Of a stretch of 37,537 nucleotides of DNA, positions 892 to 36,045 are shown piece by piece; position 1 is the first letter of the stretch, and each line of letters begins with the position of its first letter. This DNA comes from a virus (taxonomy: Duplodnaviria > Caudoviricetes). The stretch is from IMG/VR virus record IMGVR_UViG_3300038365_000215, positions 1 to 37,537 of that record; one strand, 5' to 3'. Position numbers and translations under genes: made by a program. The notes under the pieces were generated by a model that made no database searches, was not told where the DNA came from, and saw only the letters and a program-made list of their open reading frames with translations.

Positions 892-959
892 CACCCTCCA
901 TAAATCAGGCCAACGGAGGCTTAAAACAGCCTCTGCCGGCTAATTTTTTGCATAAATTT

Positions 960-982
960 AGCCGCCCCGTTGAGGAGCGGCT
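960..982 (-). terminator. Terminator-like hairpin after the rSAM cassette; a second long hairpin lies at 909-940
   Basis: Minus strand AGCCGCTCC-TCAAC-GGGGCGGCT followed by AAATTTATGC (weak U-tract). Second stem GCCGGC-A-GAGGCT / AGCCTC-C-GTTGGC. Confidence 0.45.
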
Positions 983-983
983 T

Positions 984-1313
984 TTAAGTTTGAAGCAGAT
1001 TTTCTTTTGTGAAGTTCATATCCAGCAGCACCTTGCCATCCGGCTGCAGCCGATTCGTAAGGTACCGGATGTATTGATATCCTGTGTAAGTTTGGGCCGG
1101 TGTTTTATCATCGGCACTGAGGAATACCTGGATGCTACTAAGCGCATCCTTTGTCAATTTGGCCTTTAAGGCATCCAGGGCTTCCTCATCCCCCGCGCTG
1201 CTGTTCTGGATGGTTAAGGTAATGTGCGTCTGGCCGTCGTGCTCCGGGCGATAGCTCTCTTCCACCGATGTGGCTGGGATAACCGTACCGTCTTTCAATT
1301 TTACTGTGAACAT
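984..1313 (-). CDS. Hypothetical protein (109 aa), last gene of the rSAM cassette
   Basis: Starts 4 nt after the rSAM stop, with GAAGGGAAG RBS in the rSAM 3' end. No recognised motif. Confidence 0.75.
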   Translation of the reverse strand: MFTVKLKDGTVIPATSVEESYRPEHDGQTHITLTIQNSSAGDEEALDALKAKLTKDALSSIQVFLSADDKTPAQTYTGYQYIRYLTNRLQPDGKVLLDMNFTKENLLQT

Positions 1314-1317
1314 AGAA

Positions 1318-2637
1318 TTACTTCCCTTCTAATTTTTTTAGCATGGAGAGCTCATCCTTGCTGATTATTTTCAGCGCCCATTCGTCGGGCACATGGTTAA
1401 CAAACCGCTTTTTGTTTCCGGTCAACCGGTAAATGCGGTTCCAGTAATAAATATTCGCGAGAACCCGTGCTTGGTGCATGATGCAGATGTAGGTTGCGCG
1501 CTTGTCCGGCGTGCCGAAGCACTGGTAATTGTAGGCGCTGCACCAGCTGCAGCCCTGCGCAATCGGGCAGTAGAAGCACTGGTCCGTAGACTGTGTGCGG
1601 CGGTCGATCTTTTTCAGACACTTAACACACTGCTTTTCTTTTGGCAGCGTCATGATGCCGCGATCCACATTGCCAATAATCAGCGGCGGGGCGGATTTCC
1701 CGAGTGAACTTTCCATGTAACGCAGGCACGGGAAAATGTCGCCCTTCCAGTCTACAGCCAGCATGTAGCCGGTCCCGCCGCACCAATTATCAAGGTCATG
1801 TTCTGATTTTGGCCGACCAATATCACTCTCAAAGAGGGAGATATACACGTCTTTGTACTTTCCAGATTCAATCAGATAATCGGCAAGCTGTTTCAGTTGG
1901 AAATACAGCGCCGTCGCGTGCTTTGGTTCCCAGCCTTTTTCGTAGACACAATTTGAGAAAATCTGGGTATAGCCTAAGTCGATGAGGTTTTTCCATGCTT
2001 CAAAGGCATAGTTGATATTCCCGGGCGCCAGCGTCATTTTGCTGCCCATGTCGCCGTGCCAGTAATCGCGGAAATGCTGCACCCCGCGGATGGCAATGTC
2101 GTAACTGCCGGAACCGTCCGGGAAGACTCGGCAGGCGTCGTGCAGTTTTTTATTTCCATCAATGCTAATGGAAAACGAGAGGTGCGACTGGTGCTTTTTA
2201 ATAAATGCCTGAAATTTGGGATCAAAATACAGGACTCCATTTGAGCAAATTGAAATCATATAGGCTTCGGCCCACGGATGATGCTTTTTAATTGCCTGGT
2301 CGAGAAAATAGTCAATAATTCGGTCAATAAGGTCAATTTCCAGCAGCGGTTCCCCGCCGATAAATTCCAGGATAATTGCCGGGCTGATGGTCGGATTGAT
2401 GTAGGTATTGGATTCATCAGCAGAAAGCAGATAGTCTACAAATTTCTTTGCAACAGAAATGGGCATCACATGGTGCCCTTTATTGATTTGATAGCAGTAT
2501 GTACAGCGCAAATTACAGGCATCTGTCACTTGGAAAGTTACAGAACGCGACAGGCGTTTTTCATGGATATTTCCGTTATATGGCTGAGGAAAAAGCCGAT
2601 TATAGTAATCTTGGAATGGTTCAATTCGTTTTTGCAT
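1318..2637 (-). CDS. Radical SAM/SPASM peptide maturase, CXXX-repeat target family
   Basis: CNLRCTYC (CxxxCxxC), GGEP, SISIDG. SPASM cysteines WCGG...GDIFPC...CFYCPIAQGCSWC...YIC. Adjacent to a CxxxC-repeat protein. Confidence 0.92.
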   Translation of the reverse strand: MQKRIEPFQDYYNRLFPQPYNGNIHEKRLSRSVTFQVTDACNLRCTYCYQINKGHHVMPISVAKKFVDYLLSADESNTYINPTISPAIILEFIGGEPLLEIDLIDRIIDYFLDQAIKKHHPWAEAYMISICSNGVLYFDPKFQAFIKKHQSHLSFSISIDGNKKLHDACRVFPDGSGSYDIAIRGVQHFRDYWHGDMGSKMTLAPGNINYAFEAWKNLIDLGYTQIFSNCVYEKGWEPKHATALYFQLKQLADYLIESGKYKDVYISLFESDIGRPKSEHDLDNWCGGTGYMLAVDWKGDIFPCLRYMESSLGKSAPPLIIGNVDRGIMTLPKEKQCVKCLKKIDRRTQSTDQCFYCPIAQGCSWCSAYNYQCFGTPDKRATYICIMHQARVLANIYYWNRIYRLTGNKKRFVNHVPDEWALKIISKDELSMLKKLEGK

Positions 2638-2929
2638 CAGCGACTACCTCTGCTGAAAGAATTGCAGTATTAAAATCAAGGCTCCACTGTACTTTCTTAT
2701 CTTCAAATTCTGGACGGGAAGAAACATATTCCTTCTCAAGTTCAGCTTTGGCTTCTTGATATTTTACATAATCCCCTTGATTGTCTTTGTCCCATTGCTG
2801 AAAAGCCTTTGTATGAATATCATAATCATGGGATAGCATAAACGCCATAATTTCCTTTGTACGCTCCATATTATACTGGAGAGCTTCTATATAATTTGAC
2901 TGTTCTTTGTTGATTTTAATCTGTTCCAT
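2621..2929 (-). CDS. Small partner protein of the CXXX-repeat modification system (102 aa)
   Basis: AAGGAG RBS; overlaps the rSAM start. Helical body and a C-terminal WSLDFNT motif resemble the small proteins that accompany CXXX-repeat rSAMs (TIGR04116-like, from recall). Confidence 0.65.
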   Translation of the reverse strand: MEQIKINKEQSNYIEALQYNMERTKEIMAFMLSHDYDIHTKAFQQWDKDNQGDYVKYQEAKAELEKEYVSSRPEFEDKKVQWSLDFNTAILSAEVVADAKTN

Positions 2930-2968
2930 AAGAATATTTTCTCCTTTTTAAATTAATCATCACATATA

Positions 2969-3775
2969 TTAATGCCTGCAACCACTGCAGCCTGTACAAG
3001 CACCACAACTGCTTGTACAACTTCCAGAGCAATTACCTCCACAATTTTTAGCACTACTGGATCCCCTGCATCCGGAACAACCGTCACATTGTCCTACACA
3101 GTTATTGGTGCACCCACTACAGCCATCAGTACAACCAGCACATCCATCACATGTGCCAGTACAGGAGGTACAGGCATTTGTACAGGCCTTTGAACAAGTG
3201 CCAGAACAACCGCCCGTGCATGTATCGGTACAGGTACCGGTACAGCCGCCCGTACACGCCCTACAGGCAGCACCACAGGAAGCCTCACAACCATTTGTAC
3301 AGCCAGAGCAGGCATTCGCACAGCCGCCTGAACAACCATATGAGCAGCTGCTGCCACAGCCAGAGCAGGCATCCGTACAGCCGCTGCAGCTACTGCAACT
3401 TGTGCAGCTTGTACATCCAGAATAACATCCCATTGTACAAAGTCCGCTGCACGATGCCTGACAACTACTATGTGGTGTTGTCGTTGCTTCGGCAGCATAA
3501 GTATCCACAATTTTATTAAGATTCGCCGTATTGAAATCTGACGGGATTTTTGCGCCGGCGGCGGCATCGGCAAGGTTTCCCTGCGGTTTGACTGCGATAA
3601 TTGGGGCAATTACTTTATGCCCTTGTTCGGTACGGATAATCCCGCCCGACGCAGGCTGTGCCGTAAAGTCCCAAGCGGTACCCGCATAAGCTGCCATGCT
3701 TCCGGCACCGTAGCGGCGCTGCATTTCGGCTTTGACTTTCTTTTTAATTGCGACGATTTCATCCGCCGTTATCAA
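2969..3775 (-). CDS. Cys-rich CxxxC/CxxC repeat protein, putative rSAM substrate and possible tail-fibre tip
   Basis: TTG start 6 nt after the tail-fibre stop. 104-aa Cys-free N-terminus, then 164 aa with 44 Cys (26 CxxxC and 16 CxxC spacings, one 8-aa gap), rich in G/S/T/A. Confidence 0.88.
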   Translation of the reverse strand: MITADEIVAIKKKVKAEMQRRYGAGSMAAYAGTAWDFTAQPASGGIIRTEQGHKVIAPIIAVKPQGNLADAAAGAKIPSDFNTANLNKIVDTYAAEATTTPHSSCQASCSGLCTMGCYSGCTSCTSCSSCSGCTDACSGCGSSCSYGCSGGCANACSGCTNGCEASCGAACRACTGGCTGTCTDTCTGGCSGTCSKACTNACTSCTGTCDGCAGCTDGCSGCTNNCVGQCDGCSGCRGSSSAKNCGGNCSGSCTSSCGACTGCSGCRH

Positions 3776-3781
3776 TTCCTA

Positions 3782-4669
3782 TCACCCCCATGTAGCCGGT
3801 ACCGGTCCCCAAGCCGTACCGTTATAATACTTCACAATATCGCCGTTTCCACTGTCCATCCACAACAGGCTTGTGTCATCCGGCGCGGCGGCCTGCCGTA
3901 CATAGCCACCCGTTGCAGGCAACTGCGACTTCGGCACTTTGCCGGTATTATCCAAAGATGCAATTCCTCCCATGGTACCCAATTCCGACCGCTGAACGGC
4001 CCCGGCAATTCTTTTCTTTTCCTCTGCTGTTACATGGATGCTGTTATCAAGTGCATGAGCAGCTGGGGCAGCGCCGACATCCTCCGGAGTGTTTGGTATG
4101 TTTACACTGACCGGAGCGCTGCCGTCATACGTTGCTGTAGATCCTCCCGAAAATGCGAGACTGTGCGCAACTTTGCCCGCGGCTGTATCACCGTTTTTAA
4201 GCGCATCAACATCTTTTTTCTTAGCGCAGATAAGACTGCTGTCAATCGTCGCTGTAATGTTGGCCGCGTTTCCAACCTGCGCTGTCATTACAAAGAGAAA
4301 TTCTGTCGGGCTGACACTGTATGCCGGAATTTTATCGGCTGTAGCAGATGTGTATCCATACGCATACAGGGTTTCTTCCGCATCTGGCATATTCGCGTAC
4401 AAACCAATTTCATGCCAGTAAAATGGTGTTGAAATACCCTGATTGGAAAACCAGCCTTCTACACGCGCTGCATTTTTGTTTGCGCTGATAGCAGTGATCA
4501 GTACATCTTTCACTGGGTCAACCAGTGCGGTAAGGCTCGCAACATCTGTACCATCTGACAGAGTGCCCTGTCCGATCTGCATTTTTGTGAAATTCAGTTT
4601 CTGCCCGGTCTGTGCCTTTGCCAGTAGGTTCTCACCTGCGGCGGTTAAGTAAAATTTTTCGATTGCCAT
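3782..4669 (-). CDS. Tail fibre / tail-collar fibre protein (DUF3751-like N-terminus)
   Basis: LTAAGENLLAKAQTG...FTKMQIGQG and EIGLYA...LYAY baseplate-anchor motifs. HVTAEEK and GIASLDNTGKVP shaft motifs. Follows the XkdT/XkdU-like genes. Confidence 0.85.
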   Translation of the reverse strand: MAIEKFYLTAAGENLLAKAQTGQKLNFTKMQIGQGTLSDGTDVASLTALVDPVKDVLITAISANKNAARVEGWFSNQGISTPFYWHEIGLYANMPDAEETLYAYGYTSATADKIPAYSVSPTEFLFVMTAQVGNAANITATIDSSLICAKKKDVDALKNGDTAAGKVAHSLAFSGGSTATYDGSAPVSVNIPNTPEDVGAAPAAHALDNSIHVTAEEKKRIAGAVQRSELGTMGGIASLDNTGKVPKSQLPATGGYVRQAAAPDDTSLLWMDSGNGDIVKYYNGTAWGPVPATWG

Positions 4670-8632: not shown

Positions 8633-10773
8633 TACCGGTGAACCCCCTCTCCACTGGACGCGAGTTCTTTCCGCAACGCCGATACAAGGTAAGTAACAAG
8701 CCCGTCTGCGTCGTCCCGGCTGCTCACGCTCTGTGTGATACCGCCCAAGTTGATATTAATGTTCTGGTTTGCCTGCCGCTGAATTGCTGTACGCTCCGCG
8801 AAGTCCCGCAGATACTTAATATCATCATCTTTGGCCGTGTTTTTTTCAATGTTAGCAAGGTGCTTGTTTGCCTTTTCCGCGGCATCAGCGTTAGCAAGGT
8901 GCTTGTTTGCCTTTTCCGCGGCATCAGCGTTAGCAAGGTACTTTTTTGCCTTTTTCGCGGCATCAGCGCCGGGTAATACGCCCGTTGAAGCACCAGGGCC
9001 AAGGCCTGTGCTAATGCCTTTCAAAAAGTTTGACGCTTTCATTTCCGGCATTTTCCACTTGCTGTTTTGAGACTTGGCTGCAGCCGTGTGCATACTGGAA
9101 ACAGCCGATCCAATTTTACTTCCAGCCACGCTGATGGCAGTTACTTGTTTGCTAATATTACTGTTTCGTATTTTCTGTTCTGCTGCACGCATTTTGCTCA
9201 AGGAATCTGCCTGTGAAACCTGAGAATTCATATAAGAAGAATCCGACTGTAAAATTCCGTTTGCCCAGTCTTGTACACCGCCTGCAAAGTCTGCCTTAAG
9301 ATGATAGTTTTTACCCGTAATCTTGTCTATTGCATCCAACACAGCGTTGATTGGGGTGAGAATAGCATTCACGGCATCCTGTACTGCCTTAACCGCAGCC
9401 GACATGGCAGACACCATTGCGTCCTTTATCCCAATACCCATAGCCTGAAAACCAAGTTTTACATTATCGGTAAATGTTTCAATCTGTTCCCATGCCGTGC
9501 AGGCAAAATTATATATTACCATTCCTACAAGCTGGAAACTCATACCTACAAGATTTACAGTCATTTTCAGAACTGTCAAAGCATTGTCAAGACCGCCCAC
9601 ATAGTTGATTGCATATGCAAGCACACCAGCGATAGCAGCAACGATGAGGATGAATGGTAGCACTGAGGCATTAAGGCCAAGCTGTGCAGCCGTGGCTATT
9701 TTTGTCACAATCGTCCATGCCGCCAAAGCGCCTATTGCTGCGCCAAGGATAGGCCCTACAATGCTCCAGTTTTTCTGGGCAAAGGATGTTACTCTCGAGA
9801 TACAATTAATAATCGGAATGATTCCCTGAATAATTCCAGGAAGTGTATTTGCCACACCGATAATAGTCTGTTTGATTTGCGGCATATTCTGCTTAATGCA
9901 GTCCAAAAGTTTCATTACAGATGGATAAAGAGAAAAGCCAACTTCTTTTTTTACATCGTCTAATGCCATCTTAACCTGCTGGATTTTACCCGCTGGAGTG
10001 CTTGCCATAGCCTTGTTCATCTGACCGACATTGTTCGTGATAATCTGTGCCAGGGTGGCTGCACGCTGCTGTTCATTGCCATATTTAAGGGCTTTTTCTT
10101 CCGCCGCGCTGAATGTAATGCCGACGCGGGCAAGGGAGCCAACTTCGCCCTGCATTGCTTTACCCATCATGTTGGCAATTCCGGTCATGGCTTCACTTGT
10201 CACGTTGACACCGTTTTGCTGCACGGCAAGATTGTTCATGGCCGGGATTAGTGTGTTCAGCGAATCGACGGATCCGAGAAATGTTCCGAGCTGCTGAGCA
10301 CCGGCAATCTGCACATCATCATCTACAACGCCAAGGTTTTTCTGAGCTTCGGTCAGCTTGCGAACGGATTCAATCTGCTGATCCGTTGCCCGCATTCTCT
10401 GCCGCATAACTACCGTCAGCTTTGTTTCGGCGCCAATTTGCTCATTTGCTGCATCCAAGGAGTCCTTAACTTTTCCTGCTACCCACTTGACCGCCGCAAT
10501 ACTCGCGACCGTGCGCATGATGCCCTGCAGCTTCTGACCGAGAGCACTAATGGAAGGCCCCGTTTGTTGGATAGAATTCTTGAACTTATTCTGGCTGGAA
10601 GTGCATTTTTTGATGCTGCTGTTAGCTTTCTCAAATGCCGTGCTGCTGCCAAATGAATTAGCTGCAGTTTTTACTTTACCCATGGCAGAAGCGGCGGATT
10701 GGGAAGCCTGCATAATATTCCGCAGTGCAGGGCTCATGCCGTCATAAAGGCTGATTGAAGTGGAAATATTCAT
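8632..10773 (-). CDS. Tape measure protein (about 713 aa)
   Basis: Long Ala/Gly-rich helical protein between the tail chaperone and XkdP. ATG 10773 has a GGGAGG RBS, so the ORF-track start at 10905 is probably too long. Confidence 0.9.
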   Translation of the reverse strand: MNISTSISLYDGMSPALRNIMQASQSAASAMGKVKTAANSFGSSTAFEKANSSIKKCTSSQNKFKNSIQQTGPSISALGQKLQGIMRTVASIAAVKWVAGKVKDSLDAANEQIGAETKLTVVMRQRMRATDQQIESVRKLTEAQKNLGVVDDDVQIAGAQQLGTFLGSVDSLNTLIPAMNNLAVQQNGVNVTSEAMTGIANMMGKAMQGEVGSLARVGITFSAAEEKALKYGNEQQRAATLAQIITNNVGQMNKAMASTPAGKIQQVKMALDDVKKEVGFSLYPSVMKLLDCIKQNMPQIKQTIIGVANTLPGIIQGIIPIINCISRVTSFAQKNWSIVGPILGAAIGALAAWTIVTKIATAAQLGLNASVLPFILIVAAIAGVLAYAINYVGGLDNALTVLKMTVNLVGMSFQLVGMVIYNFACTAWEQIETFTDNVKLGFQAMGIGIKDAMVSAMSAAVKAVQDAVNAILTPINAVLDAIDKITGKNYHLKADFAGGVQDWANGILQSDSSYMNSQVSQADSLSKMRAAEQKIRNSNISKQVTAISVAGSKIGSAVSSMHTAAAKSQNSKWKMPEMKASNFLKGISTGLGPGASTGVLPGADAAKKAKKYLANADAAEKANKHLANADAAEKANKHLANIEKNTAKDDDIKYLRDFAERTAIQRQANQNININLGGITQSVSSRDDADGLVTYLVSALRKELASSGEGVHR
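8851..8967. repeat. 3 x 39-bp tandem repeat in the tape measure 3' region
   Basis: GTTAGCAAGGTGCTTGTTTGCCTTTTCCGCGGCATCAGC at 8851-8889 and 8890-8928 (identical) and 8929-8967 (3 mismatches). Encodes ADAAEKANKHLAN. Confidence 0.95.
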
Positions 10774-21749: not shown

Positions 21750-21782
21750 AATGACAAATAAAAAATATTGGAGGTATTTAGA

Positions 21783-22808
21783 ATGTCAAGAAAAAGTTAT
21801 TACTATCCAGCTCTAAAATGGAAATTAGGCGAAAGGGAGGCATTAAAGCAAATTTCAACGCCATCTGATTCTTTTATACCAATTTTTGAACTTGTCGAAG
21901 ACTCATACACAGGCATTGAAGATTTTTTTAAAAAAACTGCATCTTGCTATAATGGGAAATTTTATTTTGACACAATTTGCATTGATGATAGCGAAAGAAA
22001 CATTTTAAAGAATCTTATTCGCTATGCCTCTCAGCATTCAATAGAAGCATATCCAATTATGTATCCAGAAGATATTAAATCCGGATTAGTACAACAGGTT
22101 TCCTGTCAAGTAAGCAACTTTGGATTTAACATCCCAATACCTGAAGGTTCTCTACCCAATAGCCAAATTGTTTCGGATTTGCTTCCGTATGCAGAAAAAA
22201 CGAACCTCTTTCTTAATGCAGGAATTATTGTTACAGAGCAAAATGATAATTTAATTACTTTTGCATGTACTGATTTCATTAAAAAAGAGGAAAGTAAATT
22301 AACAAATTTCTACAAAGTCACATTTGCTGCTTGTTCAATTCCAGAAGAACTAAGCAATGTTGAATCAGGCGGAACCGAATATTTTACACGCTACAGCATA
22401 GACGTATTTGAGCGTCTAATCCAAACATATAAATCTCATTTGCTTATTAGTAAGCTTTCATACTCTGATTGTGGTTCTGCCGGATTATCATATGTTAAGT
22501 TTGACCCAAGAACAATGAGAGTATTGCCAAAAATAAGGTACACAACCAATAAATATTATATTGTGTTAAAAGGTAAAAAAGATTGGACTACCAGCGCAAT
22601 GACTAAGGGGTATAAAGAATTAGCACGTGAAGTCGTAAACTCTAAATACTACTACGGAAAAGATTTTAGTTATGGTGATGAAAGGATATATGAAAAAGCA
22701 AATGACCAAAGCTCTGGAGTTGGGAATAATTGTCAATGGGTAACATACACTACTAATCATCACATAGCTGTGTTAGTGGCACAGCTCTCCAGTTTACTCG
22801 GTGTTTGA
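21783..22808 (+). CDS. Beta family protein (T4 beta-like / sce7725-related)
   Basis: N-terminal YYPALKWKLGEREAL, PKIRYTT, FSYGDERI and C-terminal W...TNHHI motifs. AT-rich. Confidence 0.8.
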   Translation: MSRKSYYYPALKWKLGEREALKQISTPSDSFIPIFELVEDSYTGIEDFFKKTASCYNGKFYFDTICIDDSERNILKNLIRYASQHSIEAYPIMYPEDIKSGLVQQVSCQVSNFGFNIPIPEGSLPNSQIVSDLLPYAEKTNLFLNAGIIVTEQNDNLITFACTDFIKKEESKLTNFYKVTFAACSIPEELSNVESGGTEYFTRYSIDVFERLIQTYKSHLLISKLSYSDCGSAGLSYVKFDPRTMRVLPKIRYTTNKYYIVLKGKKDWTTSAMTKGYKELAREVVNSKYYYGKDFSYGDERIYEKANDQSSGVGNNCQWVTYTTNHHIAVLVAQLSSLLGV

Positions 22809-23355
22809 GAGTACTTCTAACAAAGCCATTAATAGTTGTACGGTCAATATTTTGTGCAGCTATTTCAGCAAGTTTATATCTGCTTTTTGATTTTAATCCT
22901 CTAACTATTTCTGTGCTTTCACAGATAAGTTCTATAAGCTCGTCTTTCCATAACAAATTAGCTAATTGCACACAATTTACATGATGGTTTACTTTCGGCC
23001 TACGCCTTTCCTTTAGCGTAGACCCATTTTTTGTTTTGTCAATGCAGTAGATTCCCCACCACTTAGGTATAATCTTTCGAGCTTGTTTCAAATGTTCTTT
23101 GCAAGTAATAAGTGTCATAGTGTCGAAGACTTCATTGTATGATGGGACCTGTCGAGGCAACCTTTCCAGAGTATCCTGCGGGCTTTTAATTTCATATCCG
23201 TGTAATTGGCCATTTACAATTGCAATATCGGCTCTGGTGAACCCGCCACAAATATCAAGTTCACTAATTAGATAAGTATCATCATTGTTAAAAGCTGGTA
23301 CTCGTGAAAGAGCTGAAATCAACATTTTCCTCATGTCTTTATCATAAATTGCCAT
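22753..23355 (-). CDS. sce7726 family protein (PD-(D/E)XK nuclease-like)
   Basis: RADIAIVNGQLHGYEIKS..DTLERL..Q...Y..VFD, P.WWGI and LLWKDEL motifs. GGAG RBS; TGcTATAAT at 23386-23394. Confidence 0.82.
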   Translation of the reverse strand: MAIYDKDMRKMLISALSRVPAFNNDDTYLISELDICGGFTRADIAIVNGQLHGYEIKSPQDTLERLPRQVPSYNEVFDTMTLITCKEHLKQARKIIPKWWGIYCIDKTKNGSTLKERRRPKVNHHVNCVQLANLLWKDELIELICESTEIVRGLKSKSRYKLAEIAAQNIDRTTINGFVRSTLKHRVNWRAVPLTQLCDD

Positions 23356-23565
23356 TACTATCACTCCATCATATATGCTTTGCTTATTATAGCAGTTTGA
23401 TAAAAACTTTTCCATACTCAGATTAGCAAAATCTAAATAAAATTGTTTCAAGCTCACGCGGCCTGCCGGTGCTACCCCGGCATTAATGCACTGTCAGCCG
23501 CATATATTGCGCCGCCCACTGTTGCAGGCGGCGCATAAAAGGAAGGAGGTTTGTCAGCCCGATAT

Positions 23566-35057: not shown

Positions 35058-35102
35058 AAATCCGCCCTCTCCTACTCGCAATAGGAAAGAGCGGCTCACC
35101 AT
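35058..35102 (-). terminator. 45-bp hairpin repeat copy 2, terminator of the Abi gene
   Basis: Identical to 36166-36210. Minus strand CCGCTCTTTCCTAT-TGCGA-GTAGGAGAGGGCGG-ATTTTTT. Confidence 0.8.
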
Positions 35103-35962
35103 TAACTATATAATAAATCATACCAATTTTCAGGAAATCCGATACACCTTAGATCTATATATTCTTGATATTCATCAATTAAAACTTTCAAATTGTTCAC
35201 AAAACTACTACTCCAATGGAATCTGCCTCGACAGAGAAGCTTAAGCACATAGATGTAGTCAAACAATTTTCGCCATAATTTATATGGACTATTTTTGGGT
35301 GTTACTGGGATTGCAGGAAAATCGAAAAAATACAATCTTGAATAATGCGCACAAAAATTTCTTAAATATGTAAGGCACATTAACCAACTGCTTACGTTTG
35401 TGTCAGTCGATTGAAAAAGACTTTTCGCGAGTGCCTTTTTATCTTCCCGTAATAAATCGTCATAGAAATATGACAATTCACCCATTGTAGAATATTCTAT
35501 TATTACCCATACAGGAAATTTCCCATCATATTTTTTTATATGATGCTGCACAGCTGGTTGATTGCGGTTATTTGTTATATCCTTTTGAATATGCTCCAGA
35601 AATACATCATGCTTATGATAACCATTGTAATTCTTAGGATCAAGATACCCCAATGAACCATATTTATGGGCATGATAATAAGCAAGCTGCGTTCTTAGCA
35701 TAAGTTCTAGCTCTTCAATTACTGGTGCCAAGATACCACGCATTTTTCTATCAAACTCATAGATCTCATATACTTTTTTAAAGCTTGTCCCAGCAACATA
35801 TTCATCTTCACTAATTTTAAAAGGCAGAAAATAAGCTGTAAAGCGATAATAATTTATATGGTGTAATACTTTTATCGCTATATCATCGTTATTAATAATA
35901 CAACCGCGTTTTTTTAGTTTCTGCAACTGCTCCGCATAAGTACTTGGCTGTTTTACGTCCAT
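35102..35962 (-). CDS. Abi_2 / AbiF-family HEPN RNase (abortive infection)
   Basis: EQLQKLKKRG, INYYRFTAY, YEFDRKMR, PVWVIIE...GELS and HEPN RNFCAH motifs. AT-rich. Confidence 0.92.
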   Translation of the reverse strand: MDVKQPSTYAEQLQKLKKRGCIINNDDIAIKVLHHINYYRFTAYFLPFKISEDEYVAGTSFKKVYEIYEFDRKMRGILAPVIEELELMLRTQLAYYHAHKYGSLGYLDPKNYNGYHKHDVFLEHIQKDITNNRNQPAVQHHIKKYDGKFPVWVIIEYSTMGELSYFYDDLLREDKKALAKSLFQSTDTNVSSWLMCLTYLRNFCAHYSRLYFFDFPAIPVTPKNSPYKLWRKLFDYIYVLKLLCRGRFHWSSSFVNNLKVLIDEYQEYIDLRCIGFPENWYDLLYS

Positions 35963-35979
35963 AATAAACCACCCAAATA

Positions 35980-36045
35980 TAAAAATGTCCCCCACTGGGA
36001 CACATCGCGCACATTGCTATGCGTGAGAGGTGCGGGGGGTCTCAT
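35980..36045 (-). ncRNA. abiF-like structured leader RNA, candidate RNA antitoxin
   Basis: GC-rich island between TATAAT (36054-36059) and the Abi start: CCCCCCGC...CGCAT-AGCA-ATGTG...TGTCCC-AGTGG-GGGACA-TTTTT. Confidence 0.65.

What the first reader, a model, noticed from the sequence alone, without database searches (positions are those of the whole stretch)
984..4669. RiPP-like radical SAM system built into the tail-fibre locus: possible enzymatically cross-linked virion adhesin
Seen: after the baseplate genes the order is tail fibre (295 aa), 268-aa protein with 44 Cys in CxxxC/CxxC repeats, 102-aa partner, rSAM/SPASM enzyme, 109-aa protein, endolysin. All are co-oriented and tightly coupled (gaps of 6, 39, -17 and 4 nt), with no obvious promoter or terminator separating them from the tail genes. 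Known: rSAM/SPASM enzymes install Cys-to-carbon thioethers in sactipeptides and ranthipeptides. A CXXX-repeat target/maturase/partner set is defined in TIGRFAMs (TIGR04114-04116, from recall), and I know of no assigned function for it. Inference: this slot normally holds the receptor-binding protein and its chaperone, and no other candidate is visible in the window. The Cys-repeat protein may therefore be a structural fibre tip rigidified by many thioether bonds or metal clusters, giving protein-scale RiPP chemistry on a phage particle.
Basis: partly seen in the sequence, partly recalled or inferred. Interest (0 to 1): 0.95.

Follow-up and report, generated by a model that had tools for sequence, protein, structure and literature searches.

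The report
Phage fibre-tip cysteine ladder with maturase
A phage of fermentation anaerobes encodes, straight behind its short tail fibre, a protein with a cysteine every third or fourth residue plus a radical-SAM enzyme; related phages swap this gene set together with the fibre's tip, so the protein is likely an appendage on the fibre end that the enzyme would cross-link, something not yet shown for any virus particle in the papers searched.

Summary
Observation confirmed. The enzyme passes TIGR04115 (472 bits, cut-off 350); the partner is a distant TIGR04116 relative; the 268-aa protein is a ~100-aa helical domain plus 44 Cys spaced 3-4 apart. In bacterial genomes, close enzyme relatives lie beside tail genes (25 of 35; tail or lysis 30 of 35) with no exporter; the chromosomal clade never does (0 of 12). 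Added here: the fibre ends in a 45-aa 'knob'. In four close relatives with other baseplates, DNA similarity starts just before the knob and runs through the cassette; knob and helical domain stay 82-96% identical while the ladder varies (51-92%, 23-44 Cys). In cassette-free phages the knob is followed by FN3-type proteins carrying a similar helical domain. RNA-library contigs cover cassette and tail genes alike in a relative. Best reading (0.58): a gp38-like fibre-tip appendage, docked knob-to-helical domain and thioether-stapled. This scan reported the cassette before on other DNA (14 windows, 10 genomes); no paper on it was found.

The parts
3782..4669 (-). Short tail fibre, 295 aa: baseplate-anchoring N-terminal domain, linker, C-terminal knob; no recognisable receptor-binding domain
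   Evidence: PF12571 residues 7-151; phrog_7037 tail fibre
3785..3919 (-). C-terminal 45-aa knob (LW.D....G..KYY.G..W, ending in W-G); likely docking site for the ladder protein
   Evidence: alignment A4
3464..3775 (-). N-terminal ~100-aa helical domain of the Cys protein; predicted adaptor, possibly also the enzyme-recognition leader
   Evidence: A2/A3; AlphaFold pLDDT 80-97 per block over residues 1-100; 585 relatives; profile match to FN3-protein C-termini
2969..3463 (-). Cys ladder: 44 Cys at 3-4 spacing in a Gly/Ser/Thr background; the variable part among close relatives
2621..2929 (-). 102-aa partner, distant relative of TIGR04116 proteins; predicted helical hairpin plus small beta sheet
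   Evidence: hhalign 96%, E 3e-9; control; model pLDDT 95
1318..2637 (-). Radical SAM/SPASM maturase, TIGR04115; CxxxCxxC at 41-48, conserved SPASM cysteines
   Evidence: 471.7 bits vs cut-off 350; invariant columns; closest structure 5WGG/5WHY, E 1e-20
984..1313 (-). 109-aa protein; recurrent member of the phage cassette, role unknown
   Evidence: related gene in 32 of 67 close loci, 0 of 22 distant loci (iterated profile, not converged)
895..983 (-). Two hairpins between cassette and endolysin; near the downstream end of the swapped module

Best explanation
The 268-aa protein is likely a tail-fibre-tip appendage: its N-terminal helical domain is predicted to dock on the knob that ends the short fibre, and the radical SAM/SPASM enzyme, likely helped by the 102-aa partner, would staple many of its 44 cysteines to nearby small residues as thioethers, giving a rigid, variable tip that likely contacts the host surface. 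Shown: gene order, enzyme family, tail synteny, joint exchange of knob and cassette, ladder variability. Inferred: binding to the knob, presence on the virion, thioether chemistry, receptor contact. The logic is that of T2/S16 gp38 (attachment domain plus Gly-rich variable domain on the fibre end), with thioethers standing in for disulfides that would not form in the reducing cytoplasm of an anaerobe. Asp and Glu are only about 2% of ladder residues, so acceptors would mostly be Gly/Ser/Thr/Ala, not the Asp/Glu of PapB or QhpD.
For: (1) Genome loci: tail/baseplate Pfam genes near 25 of 35 close enzymes vs 0 of 12 distant; ABC/S8/FtsX exporters 0 of 35 vs 6 of 12. Both contractile and non-contractile tails carry it. 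(2) Knob in 32, helical domain in 45, both in 29 of 55 close loci; knob in 0 of 14 distant loci. (3) Starting from the knob motif: enzyme within 4 kb behind 23 of 32 C-terminal knobs vs 0 of 8 internal ones. (4) Module swap: in L001, L002, L087, L099 DNA similarity begins at window 3934-3971; fibre N-domain 28-35%, knob 82-96%, helical domain 83-90%, ladder 51-92%. (5) Five cassette-free loci put FN3-type proteins behind the knob whose C-terminal domain aligns with the helical domain (prob. 70.7%, E 3.8e-5, 0 of 30 shuffles); L200 puts a Gly-rich-domain protein three genes behind it. (6) The helical domain also occurs C-terminal to ladders (88%, E 3e-6), unlike a cleaved leader; P0189 holds a weak CBM_4_9 match. 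(7) RNA-library contigs of X17 cover 29 of 30 bins of L001's tail-plus-cassette stretch, and contigs of X16 and X17 bridge fibre and ladder genes. (8) Closest models and structure are thioether maturases; CrpC installs thioethers on a 28.8-kDa Cys-repeat protein (PMC13692751).
Against: No virion, biochemical or genetic data exist for any ladder protein. TIGR04115 itself is uncharacterised, and PapB/SCIFF scores are far below cut-off (175 vs 340; 102 vs 425). 16 of 55 close loci have the helical domain without the knob and 7 have neither. The five FN3 loci look like one lineage, and L171/L176 have a terminal knob with no adaptor-like gene behind it. Repeat slippage alone could make the ladder variable. 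Loci are related, so counts overstate independence, and the 43% boundary was chosen after seeing the data. Two cellular loci (L118, L122) use the kit outside a phage. RNA libraries may contain DNA, and contigs show no strand or level.
Confidence: 0.58

Rival explanations
1. Same tail-tip location, other chemistry: the cysteines bind metals or Fe-S clusters, or the enzyme makes a non-thioether change, giving a metal-loaded appendage.
For: Dense CxxC/CxxxC arrays can bind metals (general knowledge). Chromosomal relatives with twin-arginine-like signals and TatC imply export of a folded or loaded product. The CrpA authors suggest metal binding (discussion).
Against: A SPASM maturase is the constant neighbour, and its nearest characterised kin make thioethers. 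Cys number varies from 23 to 44 among close relatives, which fits a repeat better than a fixed cluster site.
Confidence: 0.17
2. Stapled appendage on the tail that is not the receptor-binding part: a spacer, stabiliser, shield or mucus/matrix-binding accessory.
For: The ladder is about 80% C/G/S/T with few side chains suited to specific binding. Several relatives carry other fibre-type genes beside the cassette.
Against: In this window no other receptor-binding candidate was found among 44 scanned ORFs (13). The ladder is the variable part of a swapped tip module.
Confidence: 0.13
3. A moron or late-expressed RiPP-like product (defence, superinfection exclusion, toxin released at lysis) that sits in the tail region only because that region recombines often.
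For: On the window, RNA contigs of X16/X17 cover mainly the cassette. A weak promoter-like site precedes the ladder gene. The module ends at hairpins.
Against: The RNA pattern is explained by relatives with another baseplate, whose tail genes are covered too. No exporter or peptidase in 35 of 35 loci. The swapped unit includes the fibre's own tip. Orientation is the same as the tail genes in nearly all loci.
Confidence: 0.1

Closest known systems
CXXX-repeat peptide modification system (NCBIfam TIGR04115 maturase, TIGR04116 partner, TIGR04119 second maturase, TIGR04114/04117/04118 targets; Pfam PF27846)
   Same: Enzyme above cut-off; partner homologous; Cys every 3-4 residues in the target.
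   Different: Target is a 200-500-aa protein (median 246 aa, 44 Cys vs 80 aa, 11 Cys) with a helical domain, not a short leader peptide; no TIGR04119, ABC transporter, S8 peptidase or Tat; tail-operon location. Family defined by bioinformatics only.
CrpC/CrpA of Methanococcus voltae (TIGR04463; PMC13692751)
   Same: SPASM radical SAM enzyme acting on a ~29-kDa Cys-repeat protein with a small partner; -2 Da thioethers shown.
   Different: Different enzyme family (50 bits vs cut-off 525); archaeal chromosome; CxxQ/D motifs in a 17-residue repeat; CrpC has its own RRE; no virion link.
Ranthi-/sactipeptide maturases CteB (5WGG/5WHY), PapB, QhpD
   Same: Closest structure and next-best models; CxxxCxxC plus SPASM cysteines.
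   Different: All below cut-off; the window enzyme has only ~30 residues before the core, so no fused RRE; ladder lacks Asp/Glu acceptors.
gp38 adhesin of T2/T6/S16 phages (PMC12032242)
   Same: Separate ~260-aa protein encoded behind the fibre gene, with an N-terminal attachment domain and a Gly-rich variable C-terminal part: a functional analogy.
   Different: No sequence or fold match found; gp38 needs no modifying enzyme and uses a polyglycine II sandwich.
SPN3US-type jumbo phage cassette (gp163/gp164 plus unannotated Cys ORFs)
   Same: Cys ladders and radical SAM genes directly behind fibre/baseplate genes gp170-167.
   Different: Enzyme 26% identical, below TIGR04115 cut-off (126 bits); two enzymes; short ladders with another leader; no knob.

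Membership tests
CXXX-repeat system (TIGR04114-04119) | Maturase above TIGR04115 cut-off | tested here: met
   471.7 vs 350 bits
CXXX-repeat system (TIGR04114-04119) | Target with Cys-x-x-x periodicity | tested here: met
   42 of 43 spacings are 3 or 4
CXXX-repeat system (TIGR04114-04119) | Target matches TIGR04114/04117/04118 or PF27846 | tested here: inconclusive
   No hit for whole protein or three parts; no control hit TIGR04114 either, though controls hit 04117/04118; Atlas neighbours carry PF27846 on 13-24% of members with a low recognition score
CXXX-repeat system (TIGR04114-04119) | TIGR04116 partner | tested here: inconclusive
   No HMM hit while control L155 passes; profile-profile homology 96%, E 3e-9: a distant relative, not a member by cut-off
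CXXX-repeat system (TIGR04114-04119) | TIGR04119 second maturase | tested here: not met
   Not among hits for the cassette genes; present in control L152
Ranthipeptide/sactipeptide RiPP | Cys-to-carbon thioether installed by the enzyme | not testable with these tools
   Needs mass spectrometry
Ranthipeptide/sactipeptide RiPP | Short precursor with removable leader, peptidase and exporter | tested here: not met
   268-aa target; exporter/peptidase labels in 0 of 35 close genome loci
Ranthipeptide/sactipeptide RiPP | RRE/PqqD-like recognition domain | tested here: inconclusive
   Partner model is a long helical hairpin with three strands; no distinct match (best Z 6.6, rmsd 3.6, 69 aligned)
gp38-type fibre-tip adhesin | Encoded behind, and exchanged with, the fibre C-terminus | tested here: met
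gp38-type fibre-tip adhesin | Homology to gp38 attachment or polyglycine domains | tested here: inconclusive
   No PDB sequence hit below E 0.77; best fold Z 5.5, rmsd 5.0, 86 aligned, to unrelated helical domains
gp38-type fibre-tip adhesin | Binds the fibre trimer, is on the virion and binds a receptor | not testable with these tools

The most novel reading that the evidence does not exclude
Hundreds of phage lineages, contractile and non-contractile, build their receptor-binding tip by RiPP chemistry: a phage-encoded radical SAM enzyme staples dozens of thioethers into a variable ladder that plugs, through a general knob-and-helical-adaptor joint, onto the fibre end. The same joint carries FN3 chains in other phages and has been taken over by gut bacteria for Tat export, and the 'chromosomal' CXXX peptide systems may themselves descend from the phage kit.
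Probability: 0.35. Interest if true: 0.92.

Novelty: new variant of a known kind. Interest (0 to 1): 0.74.

Why it matters
No enzyme-installed thioether on a virus particle turned up in the papers searched. If real, it is a new way to build a phage host-recognition structure, gives a first function to the uncharacterised TIGR04115 family (at least 4,268 clusters), and offers a maturase that processes dozens of sites on a protein-sized substrate. The knob-adaptor pair makes a specific, cheap binding test possible, and existing SPN3US virion spectra can be re-searched for ladder ORFs that the annotation missed.

Tried and rejected
Threefold internal repeat in the helical domain (as a monomer capping a trimer): seen by eye, not supported by profile comparison (9-19 of 40 shuffles reached the scores). 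Fold searches gave no informative match for the helical domain (BFVD's three hits at E<0.001 are uncharacterised phage proteins of 26-32% identity, probably family members) or the partner. Search for longer proteins with the helical domain: none of 72 candidates scored (weak evidence). Helical domain vs the N-terminus of the L182 repeat protein: no match. Knob vs PDB sequences: nothing. Knob-adaptor complex prediction: tool not available, so no verdict. Cassette-only RNA cover on the window was considered as lysogen expression and set aside; uncovered parts prove nothing. A twin-arginine reading of the invariant RR in the window's target was rejected: it lies in a predicted helix and lacks the FLK and hydrophobic stretch (motif recalled). 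Root of the enzyme tree is unsure (quick tree, long branches), so direction of transfer is not claimed. Literature: nine searches found no paper on this system; only listings were seen for papers not named elsewhere.
Full report
Observation. The six genes, their lengths, strand and gaps are as described. The window is a temperate myovirus of Bacillota type, from integrase through head and PBSX-like tail genes to a GH25 endolysin; the held genome is this contig alone. Near-identical DNA occurs in fermentation and bioreactor metagenomes (14 of 22 listed runs hold half its words or more, 5 flagged as possible source). The Cys protein has 104 Cys-free residues, then 44 Cys spaced 4 (26 times), 3 (16) or 9 (1) apart. 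No terminator lies between fibre and ladder; promoter-like sites are fewer than chance.

Families. The enzyme passes TIGR04115 (471.7 vs 350); next come PapB, CcpM, SCIFF and QhpD models, all below cut-off, and the closest structure is 5WGG/5WHY, named CteB in PMC13692751. Target and partner hit no model of the system, while chromosomal controls hit TIGR04116, 04117, 04118 and 04119. The partner family aligns with the TIGR04116-type cluster at 96%, E 3e-9 (best of 20 shuffles scored 15 vs 54). At least 4,268 protein clusters match the enzyme at E <= 1e-60.

Synteny. I fetched 80 of 579 viral loci and 79 from 113 genome stretches, plus six others, and reduced them to 89 at 85% enzyme identity. 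Neighbour clusters were labelled by hand from Pfam hits on 448 of 481 representatives cut to 330 aa and on the window's genes. Of the 69 genome loci left, 47 have 5 kb or more upstream. Among 35 with enzyme identity >= 43%, 25 have tail/baseplate genes, 30 tail or lysis genes, none an ABC/S8/FtsX exporter; among 12 distant ones, none has tail genes, 6 have exporters and 11 housekeeping genes (Fisher p 1e-5, overstated because loci are related and the boundary was set after viewing). The five close loci without labels are L118, L121, L122, L132, L140. A quick tree places 18 chromosomal-type enzymes on one long branch (SH-aLRT 100). Both myo- and siphovirus tails carry the cassette. Phage-clade targets are longer (median 246 aa, 44 Cys vs 80 aa, 11 Cys); chromosomal ones have short leaders or twin-arginine-like signals (motif recalled).

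The knob and the helical domain. The gene before the ladder often ends in a 45-aa motif closing on W-G; others end in a different beta domain or a Peptidase_G2-like domain. Among 55 close loci with 3 kb upstream, 32 have the knob, 45 the helical domain, 29 both, 7 neither. A scan from the knob motif gave 110 stretches, 80 with flanks; after dropping duplicates, out-of-frame matches and those with under 1.5 kb downstream, 40 remained. The enzyme follows 23 of 32 C-terminal knobs and 0 of 8 internal ones. The motif came from my own loci and some contigs recur, so this is not fully independent. Of nine cassette-free terminal knobs, five (probably one lineage) precede 400-450-aa proteins, two with weak fn3 hits, whose C-terminal domain aligns with the ladder's helical domain (70.7%, E 3.8e-5, 81 columns, 0 of 30 shuffles); one precedes small ORFs and a Gly-rich-domain protein; one a different repeat protein with two radical-SAM-like enzymes; two nothing comparable. 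The helical domain folds confidently, has 585 relatives, and in 99 of the 110 top hits long enough to judge goes with a ladder; it can also sit behind the ladder.

Module exchange. In the four closest relatives, DNA similarity to the window begins at 3934-3971, just before the knob, and ends at 944-1016 or the contig end; in three of them it breaks over the ladder. Their baseplates are of two other types. Fibre N-domains are 28-35% identical, knobs 82-96%, helical domains 83-90%, ladders 51-92% with 23-41 Cys. This is the pattern of a fibre tip exchanged together with its cognate downstream gene, as for gp37-gp38 (general knowledge; gp38 anatomy from passages of PMC12032242).

Expression. On the window, RNA-library contigs of X16 and X17 covered mainly the cassette, stopping near the knob; X15 and X18 were low and scattered. 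On L001, which shares the cassette but not the baseplate, X17 covers 29 of 30 bins (59 of 88 contigs >= 99% alike), X16, X18 and X19 cover 12-15, and one contig each of X16 and X17 bridges fibre and ladder genes without mismatch (two studies). So the asymmetry reflects module sharing. Contigs cannot show strand, level or freedom from DNA.

A cultured test case. SPN3US has two unannotated ladder ORFs behind gp167, followed by gp165 and radical SAM genes gp164/163; the first ORF's leader matches 70 phage records. gp168-170 are baseplate/fibre candidates (PMC5694885 passages; PMC5105663 passages). The virion table lists gp167-173 but not gp161-166 (supplementary Table 1); the ladder ORFs were presumably not in the search set (inferred), so this neither supports nor refutes. 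The Goslar structure preprint has no mention of cysteine or radical SAM (passages; its supplements were not seen).

Mechanism. Inferred steps: the enzyme, with SAM and auxiliary clusters, abstracts H from a residue near each Cys and forms C-S bonds; the partner may present the substrate; the product docks by its helical domain on the fibre trimer's knob. Precedent for protein-scale thioethers is CrpC/CrpA (abstract and sections 8, 12, 14 read). Ladders are 27% Cys, 24% Gly, 21% Ser, 10% Thr, about 2% Asp+Glu, and Gly precedes the second Cys in 75% of CxxC units, so the acceptor differs from PapB/QhpD. Mean spacing of 3.6-3.7 would line the Cys along one face of a helix (inference).

Against.

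Verdict. Real, widespread, and tied to the fibre tip; a new variant of a catalogued but uncharacterised system. The scan's own notes report the cassette in 14 windows of 10 genomes and in SPN3US-like phages; they are leads, not support. A word search for the knob/adaptor reading returned nothing. Nine paper searches found no description (open-access library only).

Noticed in passing
L122:5684-11260 and L118:5648-11422 (Lachnospiraceae contigs): Non-phage versions: TatC-like gene, long coiled-coil protein, an 82-86-aa knob fused to a twin-arginine-like signal, Cys ladder, enzyme. In L122 the ladder has the helical domain but no signal, which suggests piggy-back Tat export on the knob. The two fall at separate places among phage enzymes in the tree.
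   Followed up: partly
L182:3434-2 (minus strand): Knob gene followed by a ~394-aa protein of five-residue G-(T/S)-x-S-N repeats and two CxxxCxxC enzymes with no NCBIfam hit at 1e-6: possibly a second, unrelated radical SAM system in the same slot.
   Followed up: partly
L003:9094-9486 and 9497-9901 (SPN3US): Two Cys-ladder ORFs missed by annotation; gp166 is called in another frame over the second.
   Followed up: partly
L051:2834-9244 and L070:5172-9216: Large phages with five or six ladder genes in tandem, up to 968 aa and 104 Cys.
   Followed up: no
P0055, P0098, P0113; L198:6481: Several enzyme relatives carry inteins or homing-endonuclease domains.
   Followed up: no
L108:9153-9671, L133:11634-12152, L137:1375-1806: Ladders fused to a short 'G.NG..K' repeat peptide of fibre type in place of the helical domain (resemblance recalled).
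   Followed up: no
window 21768-23457 and 35102-35995: Accessory genes: Beta-protein (PF14350) facing an sce7726-family gene, and an Abi_2 family gene next to the integrase.
   Followed up: no
window 919-982: The hairpin spacer is matched by several short RNA-library contigs of high depth with unlike flanks, so it may recur elsewhere.
   Followed up: no
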